A stretch of DNA of 64,000 nt from assembly GCF_009914755.1 (NCBI RefSeq), contig NC_060931.1; one strand, 5' to 3'. Below the pieces are notes generated by a model. That model saw only the letters and a list, made by a program, of their open reading frames with translations. It was not told the DNA's origin and did no database searches. The stretch comes from the human T2T-CHM13v2.0 reference genome, Homo sapiens. A program made the position numbers and the translations under genes. Positions 1-43,814 of the stretch are shown one piece after another (position 1 is the first letter of the stretch; every line of letters starts with the position of its first letter).

Positions 1-597
<597 letters not shown>

Positions 598-1839
598 AGA
601 GGAAAGTTTCAACTTAGACATGAAGAGGTCATCACATCAGTCCTGGATGATGATGAAATTGAGGGTGGGGCAAAGTTCCTTATGTGGAATTTAGGTAAAG
701 GTGACAGCAGGAACACTAACCAAGACATTTGGAGGCAGGGTTGGGCATGGTCCAACATGATAGTGGGAATCAGGCTAAAGAAAACACGAGAAACGACATC
801 AGTGTCCATCTTTCATAGCTGCTAATGGAGTAGCTCTTGGTTTCTTCAGGGTCTGTTTTGGATGGTTCCCTTTTGTGAGGGCCAAGCAGCCCATGGTGGA
901 AGCGGGAAGGCCGGGAGTGGTTTGAGGAAAACAACCTGTAAGCGTGGACCTTGCTATATGGATGAAGAAGGGGTTGGCTCCCTAGGTGCCTGGTTCCTCG
1001 TGGATTCAGAGCAGCCTGTCCGGTTACACTCTTTAACTTCAGGATCTCATGGCCTGTGGAAGAAGCAGTGCTTTTGTTTTTGTTGTTTGTTTACTTGCTC
1101 TTTGTCTACCCTAAGCGAACATTTTAGGGAGTTATAATGTCTGTTTCCCCTAAATGTCACTGCTCTGTACATTTTTGTTGCAATATTTTTGTTACAAAGT
1201 TGCACATTGCAATTTTTTTTTGTCTTTTCATTTGCTCTCATGGGCTTCCTTACTTAGAGAACATTTTCTTCTACTTCAAGTATTTGTGTTTTTCTGTTTA
1301 TGTCTTTAGTTTTAAAAGTACCTGCAGCTGACATAGCAGCGCTTTCACTGGCGCCTGATTTTCCTTTGTACTATTGTCATTTCCAGCCATGCCTCTGGTA
1401 TTACTGTTGGTGGGAGTTTTTGTTTGGTTGGGTTTTTGTTTTGTTTTGGTATGTTACTGTTGTTTTGTTTTTTTACTTTTTAATTAACTTGTAGTAGAAT
1501 ACTTAATAGTTCTTGGTTGGCAGACAGTTAAGAAACTGAACTGTTTACCATCTTCTAGGCTTATGGCATAACCTTGTACAAGAGAACCTAATTTTTACAG
1601 TGGTGCTTTACTGATGCCAGTTTGCTTTGTCCTGATCTTTTGGGGACAATACCATTTTTAAGATTATTTTATGCTGTAGAAATAAGTAACTTAAAAGCAG
1701 TATCTCTGTGCAGTTTTCTTATGTATCTACATTGCTTATATGGTTTCTCTGCCATAAGTCTGTTTACTGAGATGATTTTATATGTGCATTGGGCTCCTTA
1801 GAATTCCTTAGGAAATTGTATTAGCCTCCATGAAGATCA

Positions 1840-23465: not shown

Positions 23466-23785
<320 letters not shown>

Positions 23786-30748: not shown

Positions 30749-30797
30749 TGAGTGTCCACGGGTGAAGAAGTGAGTGTCCACGGGTGAAGAAGTGAGT
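30749..30797. repeat. 22-bp tandem duplication in the GALNT11 3'UTR
   Basis: TGAGTGTCCACGGGTGAAGAAG x2 plus TGAGT. Confidence 0.95.
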
Positions 30798-36171: not shown

Positions 36172-36426
36172 TGGGAAAGCCGTCTGAGCCAGGCTGCCCG
36201 TGTGGGAAAGCCGTCTGGGCCACGCTCCCCGGTGTGGGAAAGCCGTCTGGACCAGGCTCCCCAGCGTGGGAAAGCCGTCTGGGCCACGCTCCCCGGTGTG
36301 GGAAAGCCGTCTGGACCATGCTCCCCTGCGTGGGAAAGCCGTCTGAGCCAGGCTGCCCCACGTGGGAAAGCCATCTGGACCATGCTCCCCTGCGTGGGAA
36401 AGCCGTCTGGGCCACGCTCCTCCATG
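36172..36426. repeat. Minisatellite, 8 x 32-bp units (TGGGAAAGCCGTCTGRRCCABGCTSCCCNNYG)
   Basis: Units start at 36172, 36203, 36235, 36267, 36299, 36331, 36363, 36395 (first unit is 31 bp). Confidence 0.95.
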
Positions 36427-37399
36427 TTGAGAAACTCAGTTCCCACCAGATGAGCAACAGAAGACGATCAAGGCCAAGTCCCATACAAAGTATAAGAAGA
36501 AAAAGAGAGCTAAATGGCATTTGTATAATGAAAGCACTCCAGAAGGAGATGCTCACAGAACCGACCCAAACTGTAACATACTGATTCAAAAATGAGCTTA
36601 AGTTATGAGGAGAGTGACATGAGAGGACCAAATACAGCAAATCTGAAAACTCAGAATGTGGTGGCAGAACTCAAGAAGTGTGAGAAATTAAGAATAGATA
36701 AGGAGGAACACGGGGGCAAAGACATAATAAGGCCTTTAAAAAAGTAGAATTTGACAAGAAGGAAACATTTTAAACAAAAAACACAAGTTCTGCTTCTGGC
36801 CAAGAAGGAGTAACAGGATCTGGGCTTGTCCTCCTGGAGTAAAAAACTAGAGACTAGAAAGAAAAACATGCAGAACCTCTTCAGCCAGTGGCTCCCAGGG
36901 AGTGGCGGGACAGTAAAGCCCCAGAAACGGGTGAGCCCAAGACTCTCCCCACCTAGGACAGTTTTCTGACTTTGGCATAGGGAGGGGAACTTAAAAAGAG
37001 GCCCATCATCCTGCAGGTCGAGATGGACACCAGAGTCCAGGGAGGCTAAGGTGGCTGGAATTCGCATCGGAGGATGAAGGAGAGGAAGGAGCTAAACAGA
37101 GAGAAGGGCCAGAACCTGCCCAGGGGCGCCTGGAGTCTAGCCGTGTTGCAGTCGGCCCGTGGAAACTTACTCCTGAGGCTGGGAGGCTCTAAACTGAACA
37201 GCTCCCAAAGATCAGGTGGGGCTGGAAATCACTGAAGCTGCCACCAGCCAAGTAACAGGCCCCACTGAGTATTCGGGGCGCCCAGGGCATTCCCCGAAGG
37301 GCCATGCCTTAGGAGTGGGGCTGGACTCGGCCAAGGGTAAAGACGCTGTCAGACTCGTCGGAAAAGTGCTTCAAGAACAAGCTTCCAAAGGTGGAAACC

Positions 37400-37675
37400 A
37401 GCCGGGCGCGGTGGCTCACGCCTGGATTCCCAGCACTTTGGGAGGCCGAGGCAGGCAGATCGCCTCCAGAGCAGCCTGGCCAACATGGGGAAAACCCGTC
37501 TCTACTAAAAATAGAAAAACTTAGCCGGGCGCGGTAGCACACGCCTGCGGTCCCAGCTGCTCGGGAGGCTGAGGCGGGAGAATCGCTCGAACCCGGGAGG
37601 CGGAGCTTGCAGCGAGCCGAGACCGCGCCAGTGCACTCCGGCCTGGGCGACAGAGCGAGACTCCGTCTAAAAAAT
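37400..37675 (+). mobile_element. Alu with left-arm deletion and excess CpG
   Basis: gccgggcgcggtggctcacgcc...ctccgtctaaaaaa. Confidence 0.9.
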
Positions 37676-38480
37676 ATATATAACCGTCACCGGGAGAAAA
37701 AGGTGATTTAAACAGGCCTAGAGAGTTCGATCGGGAGCGGGGAGCGGGGAGCGGGTCCCAGAGAGCCCTGGGCAGCCCCACCGCCGCTGTGGCCTAGTTG
37801 CCACCACAGCCCGGGAGGAGCCCAGGCACCGTCACCCCCGCCGTTTGGGGAACAAATGGTTCAGGGTAAGCAACAGATACGGTTTCATCAACAGGAACGT
37901 CACCAAGGAAGATGTGTGTTCATCAGACTGCCGTGAAGGAGAACCCCGGGGAGGACCCTGGCGGCGGGGGAGCTGCGGAGGCCGCGGAGTCCGATGTTGA
38001 GGGAGAAAAGGGCGAGGCGGCGGCAAGTGTTCCAGGGCCTGGTGGGGCCCAGGTCAAGGCAGTAAACCTGCGGCCACCGTAACCACTGCAGACGCGGGAC
38101 CTCCCCGCCGTCACCGGCAGAATCACCAGAATCCTCCGTGGGGAACGGAAGGAGGGATGAGACAGCGCTGCCGCGGGCCAGGCCCCACCACGCGGGCCCC
38201 ACCGCAGAGTCCCACTTTCCTCCATGGAGGCCGCAGTTCTCCAGCCTCCGGGGCGGCCGGGAGCAGCGATGCGGGGGTGACAGCGCGGGGAGCGGGGACA
38301 CCAGCGGGGCAGCGAGTGTACCGGGGACGCAGACCACGATTCCGCAGGACCCACCTCACCCAAGACGGCCTGGAGAGGACAGCGAGGAAGAGGATAAAGA
38401 CAATCCGGGAGATGAGACCCAAGGTCACCAGCCACCTCAGCACCGGGGCCGCCGCAACTTCGATTACCGACGCGGTCGCA
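37400..38480. other. CpG-rich island-like segment (Alu plus YBX1 retrocopy)
   Basis: Visibly high GC and CpG density compared with the flanks; not computed. Confidence 0.7.
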
Positions 38481-38960
38481 CAGAAAACCCTAAACCACAA
38501 GATGGCAAAGACACAGAAGCAGCTGATCCACCAGCTGAGAATTCCTCGCTCCAGGCTGGGCAAATGCGGCTGCTACCTCTACCATCACCCCGTTTAGTCA
38601 TCAAACAAGAACTAGGAAATTCCAGCGATAAGAAATGAACGAAAATTGGAGCTGAAGACCCTAAGTGCTTGCTTTTCGTCCACTGACCAGATAACTAGAA
38701 CTAGCTGCATTATCTGTGGGGCATGGGGTTTCCAATTATTTTTACCTAAAGACGTCTCTTTTTGGTAATAACAAAGTGTTTTTTTAAAAAGCCTGGTTTT
38801 TCTCAATACGCCTTTAAAGGTTTTAAAATTATTTCATATCTGCTCAAGTTGAGATTTTTAAGAACTTCATTTTTAATTTGTCATAAAAGTTTACAACTTG
38901 ATTTTTTCAAAAAAGTAACAAACTGCAAGCACCTGTTAATAAAAGTCTTAAATAAAAACG
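37722..38960 (+). pseudogene. YBX1P4: Processed YBX1 pseudogene (N-terminal coding part deleted, frameshifted)
   Basis: YBX1-like 5'UTR; cold-shock domain remnant (KWF.V.N.YGFINRN.TKEDV); C-terminal [49 protein letters not shown]; 3'UTR with AATAAA 38938; intronless; TSD AACAGGCCTAG at 37711-37721 and 38961-38971. Pseudogene number is from recall. Confidence 0.93.
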
Positions 38961-41900
38961 AACAGGCCTAGCAATGAAAGGATGGAATCAGCACACGCCG
39001 GTGTTGAAAACGGCTTTGACACATAGGCTCAATGTGCTAAAAAAAAAAAAAAAAAAGAAAAAGAAAAAGAAAAATTACAGGAAAACTTGAAGATAATGAG
39101 GATTGAAACTGTCAAATCAGAACTGGTCAAGGTTACTAAAAATAAGGCAAATCTGAGAAACTACCAGATTACTAGTGTCCCAGAAGAGGCTAAGAGGACG
39201 TGAGGACCAAGCACCACGTGGTGCCTGAGCCGCGTCCTGGAACAGAAAAAGGACATCATTGGAAAACCCGGTAAAACCTAAGTAGCCTGCAGGTTAGTTA
39301 ACAGCAACGGACCAATGTTCATTCCTTAGTTTTGACAAATGCACCACAGTTAACATCAGGCAAACGGGATGAGGAGTGTATGGGAACTCTCTGTATTATT
39401 TCTGCCACTTTCCTAAAAGTAATCCCAAAGTGCTCCCAAATACTATATCATTAATATGAATATAAAGTAATTCACTTTAGAGATCTGAAAATGTTCTCCA
39501 TAAAATTGACAAGAAAAAATTGTAAACTCCCTAAACATCTTTCAGTTTCCTTTTTGTCCTCCTTCCCCGTTTTTTCTTTATAAATATGGATGTTTTAATC
39601 AAATAACATTATTTTTTACATAGTATATTAACTTACGCTATCAAGAGTATGTGTTTCCAAAAATCCTTCCTTCCTGTCTGAGTGGGGGTCCGCAGGGAAA
39701 TGAGAAGGCGCGCATCTCTGGCTTCTTGAAGAGCTGTGAGGGAAGGGACTATGACGGTGTTGGCAGCCTCAGGGGCACGGCCACCTCTGAGCCCGAAGGG
39801 TGAGAAGCAGCGTCCGGAGCCGTAGGCCTAGACACAGGCAGCCGCTCCACCACCAGACAGCAGGAGCAGAAACACCCAGGTCCCTTGTCCTGCCTCCCGG
39901 CCTCCCCCCACAGCTCCCACTGGCTGAAATGAAGCAAGAGCCAGGAGACCAGAAGGGTCAGCCCTCTGGACCCAGCAGAGCAGGGGGGATTGCGGGGAGG
40001 GAGGTGACCACCTGGCACTCTGCATTCTGCCCGTCCTCCCTCCCTTTTGTGCTGGAGAAATAGTTGCAAGCTAAAGTTCCCACCTTCAGGTGAAAGGAAA
40101 GCTTAGAAATGAAAGTGAGAAATGCTCTGATAGACTCACGTACCAAGAAAACACAGAACGGGGCTGCGCACTCCCACAGCGGGCAAGAGGGCGGGAGAAC
40201 TTCCTGGAGCAGGCCAGGCGGCCTTGGGATGGACGAGGTCCCGGCGGAACGCACAGCAGTTAGGAAGCATCGAGGCAGGCGCATGCATTTCAAGGTCAGG
40301 GAATAGCAGGTCGTTCTGTTCTGAAAGCGAAGCGTCTTCCTGGCTGGGGCTGCTGGATTGAAGCCCTGAGCCGGGCAGGCTGCAGAGCGTGAGGATGGCG
40401 CGGGGCTCTGGTGTGGGCGCCTGGGAGCGGGTAGCTGCCATTCCGAGTGAGGAGATATTGGTGGAATGGTTCTGGGGAAGAGAAAAAGGATGAAGTCTCT
40501 GCAGTGGAGCTTCTGCGGGCCGAGTGGGCAGGCTGCAGGGTCGTGCCAGGGGTCTAGAGCTCAGAAGAGAGGCGTCTGGAACGCTGTTCCCACCATGTTG
40601 GGTTACGTTGTAGGTTTGGCCGAAGTCAGCGTGGCGAGAGCAGAGGATGAGAAGAGTTGAGAAAAGTGTGGGGGGTGCTAGTATTTAAAACGTACACACA
40701 AAGTTGAGGCTGTGGAGTTGGCAGCAGTGGGAATAGCAGGGCTGGAGTGAGGGAGGGGTAGTGGGAGGAGGAGGGGTCACCTATGAGTGGGGCCTCCGCT
40801 GAGAAGTCATACACCTCGTGTGCTCCGCCTGCATCGACTTGTTCTTCAGGAAGCAAAGTTTCGTAAGGTTGCCATCAAGGAAGAAGGAATACTTTTAACA
40901 TTTCTGTGGTTAGGATAAAAACTAGGTTAAAAGAATTTCTGGGACCCAGGAGTAGTGTCTTCAAAAACGAGAACCCTTGCAGGAACAGAGCATCAGAAAC
41001 TGCACAGGGAGCCGCAAGCAGGCCTGCTCTAGGCAACGAGGGCGCTGGCCCCGGGACGGATGCTGGAGCATCCTCAGGACAAAGTGGATGGAGAGTCTGT
41101 AGTACCAGCTGGGACACGTCACAGGCAAAACCCTGGCACCAGAGACAGGGTCCCACTGAGATCTCGGCCCCTGAAGGGCTCGATGGACCCACCATGGGGT
41201 CTGAGGACACAGGAGCAAGCAGGGCCGGGATGCAAGATTCCCAGAGACCTGGAGTAAGGCTGTGGCTGACGGGGGATGAGCAGACAGCTGACCCTCCTAG
41301 CAAGTAGAACATGGCTTCCATTTTAGAAGGTCCTGAACGCTTGAAGGAGCCTCCAGGAACTACACATAAAGCTGTGCTGTCAACGGCACGGCAGGAAGAA
41401 AACGAGACTTCAGAGTGGCGCTGGGCACTGAGCTGGAGCACGGAGCACATTGTGCAAACGGGCACCGTCGGTCTACTCACCTCCCCACGAGAAGAACCTT
41501 GCTTTGCTGATATTTACCCAATTTCTTTAGATATTTGGGAAAGGATTCTTCAACTCTGCCAGAAGGTGATGGGAGCGGGAGTCCTCCCAGGCATAGCTGG
41601 AAACCTGATGGAAGTGCTGAGGCCGCCTTATCTAGGAACACATTTAAGTCTAGTAAGCACAGTTAAAAACATCATGATTCTGCCTCTTGGAACCTTAAGT
41701 CTCTCTCGTTACATGGTCGTAACTGAAATATTTAAATTTTTAATGTTTTAAATGTAGCACTTCTCATTTCAAAGCTTCTGCCAGTGTATGTGACAATGCG
41801 CCCCAGGGAACAGGCCACCGGGGGCTTTACTGCATTGCTGTGAAGCTGAGGGAGTGCTGGTGACTCTGCTGTTGAGACTGTCCTTTCCTATTACAATAGG

Positions 41901-42146
41901 GCAGGATGGCCCTAGGCTCAGGGCCAAAAGATAAAGTCAGACTCTGTGCCTTTTTTCTTTCCATGGTGTTCACAGCAAACAACCCATTCTTTGGAATTTG
42001 TCTACATTGTTCCTGGGCATTTGAAGTGGGACAGTTGTGGTGTTTCTGTCCGAGCCTAATAAAAAATGCACTAGTATCATAGAAGCCATGAATTACTGCA
42101 TAGCTATGGTTTCCTGGAAGAGCTGGCTTCCGTTATTATTCTTTTA

Positions 42147-42390
<244 letters not shown>

Positions 42391-43814
42391 AGGCTGTTTT
42401 TCAGATTACTATTAAATACATACCTTAATGATGAAAAAAGAATGGGGTAGAGACCTTAGAGGGAAAAGATTAAAGCAGCAATGTGGGAAGAAAGCCAGGA
42501 AAGGGTTCTGCTCCACAAGCAGGGGCTGGAGAGAATTTCAGAGACAGCGGCTGCCACCGCCACCAGAGACAGGAAACCCTAATGGCCAGATGATCATCTA
42601 CCGCATCGGACACCACATCAGACTAAGTGTGTTTGTTTCTGTTTGGTGACTAGGACAGAGGGCAGTGCAGCCTCCACGTGACATGGGGCCAAAGGAGGAT
42701 AGGAGAAGCTGAGGAGAGACTTGAGACAAGGCGGTTTTGAAATGGGAAATGTTTGAGCCATCTACATGCAAAACACCTCAGCTGCTGCCAGCTCCCTCCA
42801 TGTCACGACCATCCGCCTAGCCCAGGGCACCCCTTGCTCCTCCTGGGACTCGTACGGAGCCCACTCAGCCTCAGTGTACACACGCTGGTGCCCACAGGCG
42901 GGCCACCTCTTCTGGGCAGCGTGTCACCTCTATGCACAGTGGGAACTCAGCACCGTCCGGCAGCAGCTTCCTGCTGACCCACGCGAGCTAAACCTGCGCC
43001 ACTCACCCTTGCTTTTCTCTCATCTCACCTCCTGCCACTCTGTCCCAGCCACACCTGCCTTTCAGTTACTGGCAGCATCAGCCTCTTTCAGATCTCAAGG
43101 CTCCTGTATGAGTTGTCCCCTCTGCCAGGCAAGCCTCTGCCACGCTCCCAGCTCCTCTTCATCCTTCAGGTCTTGCTTAAATGCTGCCTCCTTAGAATGC
43201 CCCCACGGGACTCCCAGCCCACCTCCCATCTAAAAAAGTCACCTGTTTTTGTCCGTGCCCCTCACTAGAAGGCAAGCTCCATGGTGGACTAGGAATGCTG
43301 GCTATTTTAGTGTTAGCGAAGTCCCAGTTAAAAATCTGTCCTAGAAACTAAAGGGGATTCTGAGCAGTTTTTTTCTTAACCCCTTTATATTTAATACGTT
43401 AAATAATTCAATAAGATAGAAAGAAAGTCTACCACATAGAATAAAGTCTGAAAAGCTGCCTCAAAAAAAAAAAAAAACAAAAAAAAAACAGCAACATAAC
43501 CAAGACTAAATTTACCAATTAAACAAAAACAGGCTTTGAACAAGGCACCAAGGATATTCTAAATTTGGTAAACACCCTAAAAAGATACAGAAGTTCCCTT
43601 CTTTATTCAGTCGAAGGGAAGGAAAAAGTATCATAATTAGAATGAATTATGAATTTACATCTAAACTTATTTGAAAATCTAAGAAAACCAAGTTGATCGC
43701 ATCAACACTCTAATTGTGAAAGATCTATCAGATGGTCAGTGAACTTCAGACAATCCTCAATTTAAGAGCTCAAATTTGAATATGAGGAGTTAACACAGAA
43801 GCTCTAGGCAGCTC

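What the first reader, a model, noticed from the sequence alone, without database searches (positions are those of the whole stretch)
37400..38600. Local AT-to-GC, CpG-gaining divergence across an Alu and a YBX1 retrocopy
Seen: by eye against the recalled Alu consensus, the right arm (37521-37668) has about 9 weak-to-strong changes versus about 3 strong-to-weak. Examples: GCGTGG>GCGCGG, TGTAGTC>TGCGGTC, CTACTC>CTGCTC, GCAGG>GCGGG, CTTGA>CTCGA, AGTGA>AGCGA, GATCG>GACCG, CCAGC>CCGGC. About six new CpGs are created and most ancestral CpGs are kept, opposite to the other Alus in the window. Both A>G and T>C occur, which argues against strand-specific RNA editing. Internal control: the 5'/coding part of the adjacent retrocopy is GC-rich, heavily diverged and full of small deletions, while its 3'UTR (38600-38960), part of the same insertion, stays AT-rich and close to YBX1 as I recall it. 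Inference: a GC-biased gene-conversion tract at a past or present recombination hotspot, and/or germline hypomethylation, has built a new orphan CpG island from two retroposed sequences about 1 kb from the minisatellite.
Basis: partly seen in the sequence, partly recalled or inferred. Interest (0 to 1): 0.7.

Follow-up and report, generated by a model that had tools for sequence, protein, structure and literature searches.

The report
GC-driven tract in a YBX1 retrocopy
A dead copy of the YBX1 gene has had about a third of the A/T letters in its middle turned into G/C, making a new CpG island, likely because meiotic DNA repair at a long-used recombination hotspot favoured G/C; the same stretch is also G/C-shifted in other YBX1 copies, which suggests the sequence may attract such hotspots.

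Summary
Against the spliced parent gene, the coding part of YBX1P4 has 102 A/T>G/C changes and 11 G/C>A/T changes. They peak in a ~0.55-kb core (37933-38474, 34% of A/T sites), fall to 10-20% on both shoulders including the Alu (13 vs 7), and vanish in the last 220 nt (1 of 163). All four change types and all codon positions are hit alike, which excludes RNA editing, coding selection and loss of methylation alone. The best reading is GC-biased gene conversion, producing a 1.4-kb CpG island of a known class (BGC islands). (1) The dose, roughly 10-25 times the rate in like-aged copies, is more than one short-lived PRDM9 hotspot should leave. (2) An independent YBX1 retrocopy on chr5 has the same core with matching edges (p=6e-9), weaker copies lean the same way, and the parent gene does not. 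Against: deletions dominate without microhomology, humans are reported to avoid CpG-island hotspots, and the recurrence rests on one strong extra copy. No primate, recombination or methylation data could be tested.

The parts
37250..38628 (.). CpG island by sequence (1379 nt, GC 0.63, CpG obs/exp 0.77, 104 CpG); the longest such stretch in the window
   Evidence: profile
37402..37670 (+). Alu (scores slightly better against an AluS-like than an AluY-like consensus), 13-nt deletion in left arm; upstream shoulder of the tract, 13 W>S vs 7 S>W
37711..37721 (+). left copy of an 11-nt target-site duplication of the retrocopy
   Evidence: sequence
37724..38955 (+). YBX1P4 processed pseudogene, near full-length, intronless, about 215 nt of the GC-rich exon 1 lost; extends 410 nt beyond the annotated end (38544)
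37724..37932 (+). 5'UTR remnant and start of cold-shock-domain sequence: shoulder, 6 of 29 and 6 of 51 A/T sites changed to G/C
37933..38474 (+). core of the tract (parent mRNA 420-1017, exon 4 to mid exon 7): 79 of 234 A/T sites to G/C vs 2 of 233 non-CpG G/C sites to A/T; GC 0.53 to 0.69; CpG 26 to 46
38074..38086 (+). exact match to the degenerate 13-mer of human PRDM9 allele A (motif recalled), absent from the parent core, i.e. created by the substitutions; chance of at least one such match is 0.24, so not significant
38475..38734 (+). downstream shoulder (end of coding sequence, first part of 3'UTR), 10-11% W>S
38735..38955 (+). distal 3'UTR with poly(A) signal: 6 differences in 221 nt, 1 W>S in 163 sites; internal control
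38961..38971 (+). right copy of the target-site duplication
39200..39445 (+). old interspersed repeat piece (looks like an L1M 3' end, name recalled) with its own W>S excess: 25 of 93 A/T sites in 39200-39345 vs 9.3% in 20 other copies (highest 18%)
36172..36420 (.). 32-nt GC-rich minisatellite, 7.8 copies, 1.5 kb from the core; no link shown

Best explanation
The middle of the YBX1P4 retrocopy and the neighbouring Alu carry a strong, focal excess of A/T-to-G/C substitutions that was likely fixed by GC-biased gene conversion at a recombination hotspot which probably stayed in use, or was renewed, for much of the copy's life and whose position was probably set in large part by the spliced YBX1 coding segment itself. 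Shown: insertion of a spliced mRNA with target-site duplication; a core with 34% of A/T sites converted and G/C sites almost untouched; shoulders of 10-20% on both sides; a CpG island as the result; the same core in an independent copy on chr5; none of it in the parent gene. Inferred: meiotic breaks centred on the core, heteroduplex mismatches resolved towards G/C, fixation 10-25 times faster than neutral averaged over the copy's life; a loop in which the CpG/GC-rich intronless segment stays open or unmethylated in the male germ line (or keeps offering GC-rich PRDM9 sites), so that each round of conversion keeps the target alive; the distal 7q setting (7.3 Mb from the chromosome end) raises the dose.
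For: 102 vs 11 (p=1e-20). A>G 53, T>C 31, A>C 22, T>G 16 against 18 S>W of all kinds over mRNA 11-1300. Equal rates at codon positions 1/2/3: 0.29/0.30/0.29. Rate in the core does not depend on neighbouring bases (0.38/0.34/0.35) and the fall outside it is positional (distal UTR: 1 seen, 61 expected). Width fits published tracts (mean 1018, median 788 nt, clustered near telomeres; PMC3744432 passages). Dose: time-averaged B about 10-25 on like-aged baselines vs present human hotspots median 2.7, upper 18, age under 0.7-1.3 Myr (PMC4510005 passages); a rough drive model gives 0.8-10% W>S per motif-dependent hotspot life, i.e. 4-50 lives needed. Recurrence: chr5 copy 58 of 247 in the core vs 20 of 317 outside, p=6e-9; chr2a copy 43 of 239 vs 23 of 307, p=3e-4; separately fitted cores 420-1017 (P4) and 426-929 (chr5); derived alleles shared at chance level (18 vs 17.6); 12 of 13 other copies have a higher W>S/S>W ratio inside than outside (p=0.003); the 11 copies left after removing chr5 and chr2a still differ between the core and the adjoining segment of equal GC (190:193 vs 30:61, p=0.005). 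Parent introns 4 and 5 are 41% and 32% GC, GC3 0.39-0.46. 0 of 20 keratin retrocopies exceed a ratio of 1.8. No sign that gained CpGs decayed (0 double steps vs 26 intact). A retrotransposed CpG island stayed unmethylated in mouse male germ cells whatever its place (PMC4509998 abstract and passages).
Against: No recombination, methylation, polymorphism or primate data were available. Humans are reported to show a deficit of recombination at CpG-island (default) hotspot loci (PMC11161765 section 8). Present human hotspots show an excess of insertions and microhomology (PMC7615360 passages); here 19 deletions vs 2 insertions and microhomology at chance level (3 of 14, expected 2.5). GC-conservative changes are also raised (23 of 716 vs 14 of 1579 in two younger copies, p=1e-4), which conversion alone does not predict. 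One strong extra copy of 13 vs 0 of 20 keratin copies is not significant by itself (p=0.39); in the circular-shift test the chr5 profile ranks 2 of 47. The old repeat at 39200-39345 is also GC-shifted, which points to the place as well as the sequence. The most CpG-rich part (exon 1) is mostly deleted in P4 and the segment 326-420 is low in both P4 and chr5, which a simple 'distance from the island' model does not explain. The copy's age is uncertain, so B ranges 4.5-67 across baselines.
Confidence: 0.55

Rival explanations
1. GC-biased gene conversion set by the place only: successive ordinary PRDM9 hotspots in a recombination-rich distal 7q region happened to fall on this insertion; the chr5 copy is a coincidence and the weak trend in other copies a compositional effect.
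For: 7.27 Mb from the chromosome end, where tracts cluster; separate W>S patch at 39200-39345 (p=2e-6); more CpG-rich patches at 39.6-41.5 kb; 1 of 13 vs 0 of 20 not significant; a new PRDM9-A-like 13-mer in the core.
Against: Matching edges in P4 and chr5; the chr5 copy is interstitial with CpG-poor upstream flank; core differs from an adjoining segment of equal GC in 11 further copies and in the five youngest alone (35:20 vs 3:12, p=0.003); Alu pieces 2.1-2.4 kb upstream and 3.2 kb downstream are ordinary (5:14, 3:15, 9:27).
Confidence: 0.25
2. A local mutational process that writes G/C (error-prone repair or synthesis tied to this sequence or its chromatin), with no fixation bias.
For: Deletions (21 of 805 vs 11 of 4025 in five young copies) and C<>G changes (20 over mRNA 11-1300) are raised too; sharp edges.
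Against: Non-CpG G/C>A/T is not raised (2 of 233 in the core); all four W>S types on both strands rise together; I know of no such mutator (own knowledge); genome-wide, W>S bias is reported to be fixation, not mutation (PMC3157837 abstract and passages).
Confidence: 0.08
3. Selection built a regulatory CpG island (enhancer or promoter between the GALNT11 and KMT2C 3' ends).
For: New orphan islands are linked to enhancer turnover (PMC11170920 passages); YBX1P4 is listed as an eQTL gene in lung (PMC6287114 passages); the distal 3'UTR is little changed.
Against: About 100 separate W>S fixations, spread evenly and mostly not CpG-forming (41 CpG gains over mRNA 11-1300; T>C 10 of 37 before G vs 14 of 76 elsewhere; A>G 13 of 64 after C vs 32 of 172), repeated at an unrelated locus; no conserved reading frame. 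Later co-option is not excluded.
Confidence: 0.05
4. Germline hypomethylation alone kept and accumulated CpGs.
For: Alu CpG decay 4 of 48 vs 38% in neighbours; no decay of gained CpGs; precedent in PPP1R26P1 (PMC3839921 passages).
Against: It lowers S>W at CpG only; it cannot raise A>C, T>G or non-CpG-forming transitions 10-25 fold. Ancestral CpG positions in P4 did decay (9 of 80, like young copies at 9-10%).
Confidence: 0.03
5. Artefact of the reference: the copy came from a GC-richer ancestor or another source gene, was converted by other copies, was RNA-edited before insertion, or is misaligned.
For: P4 keeps the older base at three parent-changed sites (mRNA 629, 935, 1262); 51 of 89 derived alleles occur in some other copy vs 42 expected (p=0.02).
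Against: Only 9 non-CpG sites changed in the parent since the old copies and masking 23 shared sites leaves 81 of 243; no third-position excess; no single donor; four change types; result holds away from gaps.
Confidence: 0.02

Closest known systems
BGC CpG islands (Cohen, Kenigsberg and Tanay 2011; not held; seen only as described in PMC4121359 passages)
   Same: A CpG island whose CpG content comes from strong W>S fixation rather than from protection; many such islands are said to be hypomethylated in sperm.
   Different: Here the ancestral state is given by a parent gene and an Alu consensus, so the island is shown to be built after insertion; recurrence on one mRNA segment is not part of that class as described. 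Whether this locus is in their list could not be checked.
phastBias gBGC tracts, including HAR1-3 and ADCYAP1 (PMC3744432 passages)
   Same: About 1 kb wide, W>S excess, near a chromosome end, overrides codon structure.
   Different: Those are called on the human or chimpanzee branch; this one sums over the copy's whole life (probably tens of Myr) and reaches a third of A/T sites.
PRDM9-independent (default) hotspots at hypomethylated CpG islands (PMC11161765 section 8; PMC13186367 passages)
   Same: Stable position, GC peak, tied to CpG-rich open DNA; newly hypomethylated mouse regions become such hotspots in Prdm9 knock-outs.
   Different: Humans show a deficit at these loci, they are promoter-like and depleted in repeats; here the site is a promoterless coding segment plus an Alu.
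PRDM9-directed hotspots and their erosion (PMC4510005; PMC7615360)
   Same: Focal core with shoulders; raised indel and C<>G changes.
   Different: Life under about 1 Myr and self-erosion give too small a dose; indels there are insertion-biased with microhomology, here deletion-biased without.
Retrocopy-derived CpG islands such as PPP1R26P1 in RB1 (PMC3839921; PMC4122923: 665 retrocopy-associated islands)
   Same: A retrocopy supplies a CpG island at a new site, its fate differing between copies.
   Different: Those keep CpGs inherited from the parent; here CpGs and GC were gained in a segment that is not the parent's island.

Membership tests
processed pseudogene of YBX1 | intronless match to the spliced mRNA | tested here: met
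   collinear across exons 1-8 of the parent rebuilt from the genome
processed pseudogene of YBX1 | target-site duplication and broken frame | tested here: met
   11-nt duplication; 19 deletions, longest YBX1-frame ORF 56 aa
gBGC tract | polarised excess of W>S over S>W | tested here: met
   102 vs 11; Alu 13 vs 7
gBGC tract | all W>S types, both strands, CpG and non-CpG contexts | tested here: met
gBGC tract | accelerated W>S with suppressed S>W, blind to coding function | tested here: met
gBGC tract | hundreds to a few thousand bases wide | tested here: met
   core 0.55 kb, total about 1.3 kb
gBGC tract | GC-conservative changes near the neutral rate | tested here: inconclusive
   3.2% vs 0.9% in two younger copies, similar to old copies; far below W>S; age, multiple hits or hotspot mutagenesis could account for it
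gBGC tract | fixation bias in polymorphism; lineage assignment; overlap with recombination maps | not testable with these tools
   no variant data, primate genomes or maps held
BGC CpG island | meets CpG-island sequence criteria | tested here: met
   1379 nt, GC 0.63, obs/exp 0.77
BGC CpG island | CpG content sustained by GC gain | tested here: met
   core CpG 26 to 46, GC 0.53 to 0.69
BGC CpG island | class assigned from primate deamination rates and methylomes | not testable with these tools
   paper and tracks not held
single PRDM9-directed hotspot | binding motif at the centre | tested here: inconclusive
   one allele-A 13-mer at 38074, off-centre, absent in parent, chance 0.24; ancestral alleles unknown
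single PRDM9-directed hotspot | short life limiting the dose | tested here: not met
   rough model needs 4-50 lives; B of 10-25 averaged over the whole life
single PRDM9-directed hotspot | insertion-biased indels with microhomology | tested here: not met
PRDM9-independent hotspot | germline-hypomethylated CpG island | tested here: inconclusive
   indirect only: low Alu CpG decay, no decay of gained CpGs, but ancestral CpG loss like other young copies
PRDM9-independent hotspot | H3K4me3 without H3K36me3 and DSBs independent of PRDM9 allele | not testable with these tools
   no chromatin or DMC1 data

The most novel reading that the evidence does not exclude
The spliced YBX1 coding segment is a portable, self-renewing recombination target: once pasted into the genome without introns it draws meiotic breaks independently of PRDM9's turnover, GC-biased conversion makes it still more CpG-rich, and retrotransposition thereby seeds long-lived hotspots and new CpG islands in primates, a lineage thought to avoid such hotspots.
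Probability: 0.3. Interest if true: 0.8.

Novelty: new variant of a known kind. Interest (0 to 1): 0.55.

Why it matters
Retrocopies come with a known ancestral sequence and in replicate, so they separate 'sequence' from 'place' in setting where GC-biased conversion acts. If one mRNA segment is hit again and again at unrelated sites while the parent gene is not, then some primate hotspots are specified in cis by a feature that conversion does not erode, which bears on the hotspot paradox, on whether default hotspots worked in simian ancestors, and on how orphan CpG islands arise. It also warns that such pseudogenes look far older than they are (78% identity in the core, 97% in the tail). If the recurrence fails, it is a clear but ordinary example of a gBGC island.

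Tried and rejected
RNA editing, coding selection, misalignment, a shared GC-rich source gene, conversion from a single donor copy and neighbour-base effects were tested and rejected. Microhomology at deletions: no excess. PRDM9-A 13-mer: present but not significant; the window's 9 matches (1.3 expected) are mostly in Alus. G-quadruplex patterns: two in P4, one in the parent's exon 1, uninformative. A 3'UTR tree placed P4 next to the old copies on weak support, not used for dating. Searches for paralogues of 36430-37395 and 39480-43400 gave only short old-repeat pieces and an Alu, so these flanks could not be polarised. A bacterial promoter scan was irrelevant. The keratin control has 20 of a planned 40 copies, taken at even steps down 157 matches. 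Dropped before counts: the chr10 copy (lacks most of the core), duplicate loci of three split copies, four short fragments (L057-L060) and matches with no locus. Paper searches: YBX1P4 (2 papers, eQTL/expression mentions only, one read in passages), YBX1P with methylation (7; one read), and searches found no description of this tract or of repeated gBGC on one retrocopy segment; subscription journals and supplements were not seen, so the locus may be in published tract lists.

Full report
What is there. The window is human chr7:153,264,001-153,328,000. Between the 3' ends of GALNT11 and KMT2C lie an Alu (37402-37670) and, 50 nt on, a near full-length processed copy of YBX1 (37724-38955) bounded by an 11-nt target-site duplication. 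I rebuilt the parent's spliced sequence from its eight exons in the same genome (intact 324-aa frame) and mapped the copy and 14 other YBX1 retrocopies on it; 13 of these cover the segment of interest and were used further.

Check of the observation. Against a consensus of 102 other Alus, this Alu has 13 A/T>G/C (W>S) changes and 7 G/C>A/T (S>W), right arm 9 vs 4; the 25 other Alus of the window pool to 138 vs 662 (p=4e-6), and its W>S share is the highest of all 103, although 22 of the loci were picked as its best matches. In the retrocopy's coding part the count is 102 of 350 A/T sites vs 11 of 366 G/C sites, 80 vs 10 away from gaps. A two-edge fit puts the core at parent mRNA 420-1017, window 37933-38474: 79 of 234 A/T sites changed, 2 of 233 non-CpG G/C sites; identity 78%, GC from 0.53 to 0.69, CpG from 26 to 46. 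Shoulders of 10-20% run through the 5'UTR and Alu and through the first part of the 3'UTR; the last 221 nt have 6 differences and 1 W>S in 163 sites. The result is a 1379-nt CpG island. There are 19 deletions and 2 insertions in the coding part.

What it is not. All four W>S types occur (A>G 53, T>C 31, A>C 22, T>G 16), so not editing. Codon positions are hit equally and no YBX1 frame survives, so not coding selection. Rates in the core do not depend on neighbouring bases, and core rates would predict 61 changes in the distal UTR where 1 is seen. Few sites changed in the parent itself; masking 23 sites shared by four or more copies leaves 81 of 243. Loss of methylation slows CpG decay but cannot raise A>C or T>G (established knowledge); it may protect the product, since the Alu lost 4 of 48 CpG positions against 38% in its neighbours and none of the gained CpGs shows a second-step decay (0 vs 26 intact; 3 vs 7 in the older chr2a copy).

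Mechanism. The pattern is that of GC-biased gene conversion: width and place agree with published tracts (PMC3744432, passages; the site is 7.27 Mb from the chromosome end). The dose is the surprise. The distal UTR suggests an age like the chr7b and chr15 copies (7 and 5 differences) and not the old copies (22-37), though three retained ancestral bases hint at somewhat older. On baselines from like-aged copies the W>S rate is 10-25 fold, i.e. B of 10-25 averaged over the whole life (4.5-67 at the extremes). Present human hotspots have median B 2.7, upper 18, and are under 0.7-1.3 Myr old (PMC4510005, passages). A back-of-envelope model of my own, in which drive against the motif competes with GC bias, gives 0.8-10% W>S per hotspot life, so 4-50 lives would be needed (inference, parameters assumed). 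The target therefore probably was not eroded, or was re-targeted many times.

Recurrence. The chr5 copy has 58 of 247 in mRNA 401-1000 vs 20 of 317 beyond (p=6e-9), with 24 deletions; chr2a 43 of 239 vs 23 of 307 (p=3e-4); chr2b, chr15 and chr1b p=0.01-0.03; the other eight are not significant. The window 401-1000 was first seen in P4's profile. The chr5 core fitted alone is 426-929. P4 and chr5 share derived alleles at chance level. Twelve of 13 copies have a higher W>S/S>W ratio inside than outside; without chr5 and chr2a, 11 copies still differ between the core and the next segment of equal GC (p=0.005), as do the five youngest (p=0.003). The parent shows nothing there: flanking introns 41% and 32% GC. 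Of 20 keratin retrocopies none exceeds a ratio of 1.8, against 22 for P4 and 5.9 for chr5, but 1 of 13 vs 0 of 20 is not significant alone (p=0.39), and the two families were polarised differently (parent vs consensus). I take the recurrence as more likely real than not.

Results against. [quoted passage not shown] Present hotspots favour insertions with microhomology (PMC7615360, passages); here deletions dominate with chance-level microhomology. GC-conservative changes are raised about 3.7 fold over two younger copies. An old repeat piece 250 nt past the copy is also GC-shifted (25 of 93 vs 9.3%), so the place contributes, and the near-intact distal UTR between two shifted stretches is unexplained. 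Exon 1, the parent's real island, is mostly deleted in P4, and mRNA 326-420 is low in P4 and chr5.

Comparison with what is known. It works like, and by the testable features is, a gBGC tract that has made a BGC-type CpG island (Cohen 2011, seen only through PMC4121359 passages); gBGC as a source of orphan islands is in print (PMC11170920, passages), as are retrocopy islands (PMC4122923, PMC3839921, passages) and germline hypomethylation of a newly retrotransposed island (PMC4509998). It fails two tests for a single PRDM9 hotspot and cannot be tested for the default type (PMC13186367, passages). PMC3157837 and bioRxiv 192757 were seen in passages. Ten searches found no account of this tract or of repeated conversion on one retrocopy segment; YBX1P4 appears in 2 papers, the one read only as an eQTL gene. 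Repeat family names other than Alu, and the PRDM9 motif, are recalled.

Verdict. Real, strong, and most likely gBGC (about 0.8 counting both conversion readings). The part that would be new, a sequence-carried and long-lived target, is supported but not shown. Interest 0.55.

Noticed in passing
L044/L055, G000:C5:72898640-72900550: YBX1 retrocopy with the same W>S core (73 vs 22 in the coding part), 24 deletions and a CpG-rich patch in a CpG-poor flank; an AluY-like element sits in its 3'UTR.
   Followed up: yes
L041, G000:C2:132926477-132927621: Older YBX1 copy with a milder core excess and signs of later CpG decay: possibly an extinct episode.
   Followed up: partly
window 38735-38955: Distal 3'UTR with poly(A) signal is almost unchanged between two GC-shifted stretches; could be young, spared or constrained. 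The annotation of YBX1P4 stops at 38544 and misses it.
   Followed up: partly
window 39600-41510 and 42500-43000: Further GC- and CpG-rich patches (40052-40718 meets island criteria) with no paralogue found to polarise them.
   Followed up: partly
window 36172-36420: 32-nt GC-rich minisatellite, 7.8 copies, with a 64-nt higher-order period.
   Followed up: no
window 160-456: AluS-like element keeping 20 CpGs (6 of 48 positions decayed) without W>S excess: looks like protection from methylation, unlike the focal Alu.
   Followed up: no
window 23598-23785 and 30749-30797: Perfect tandem duplications of 95 nt and 22 nt (the latter in the GALNT11 3'UTR).
   Followed up: no
L056, G000:C6:27323622-27324679: YBX1 copy with the opposite bias (30% of non-CpG G/C sites lost to A/T).
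   Followed up: no
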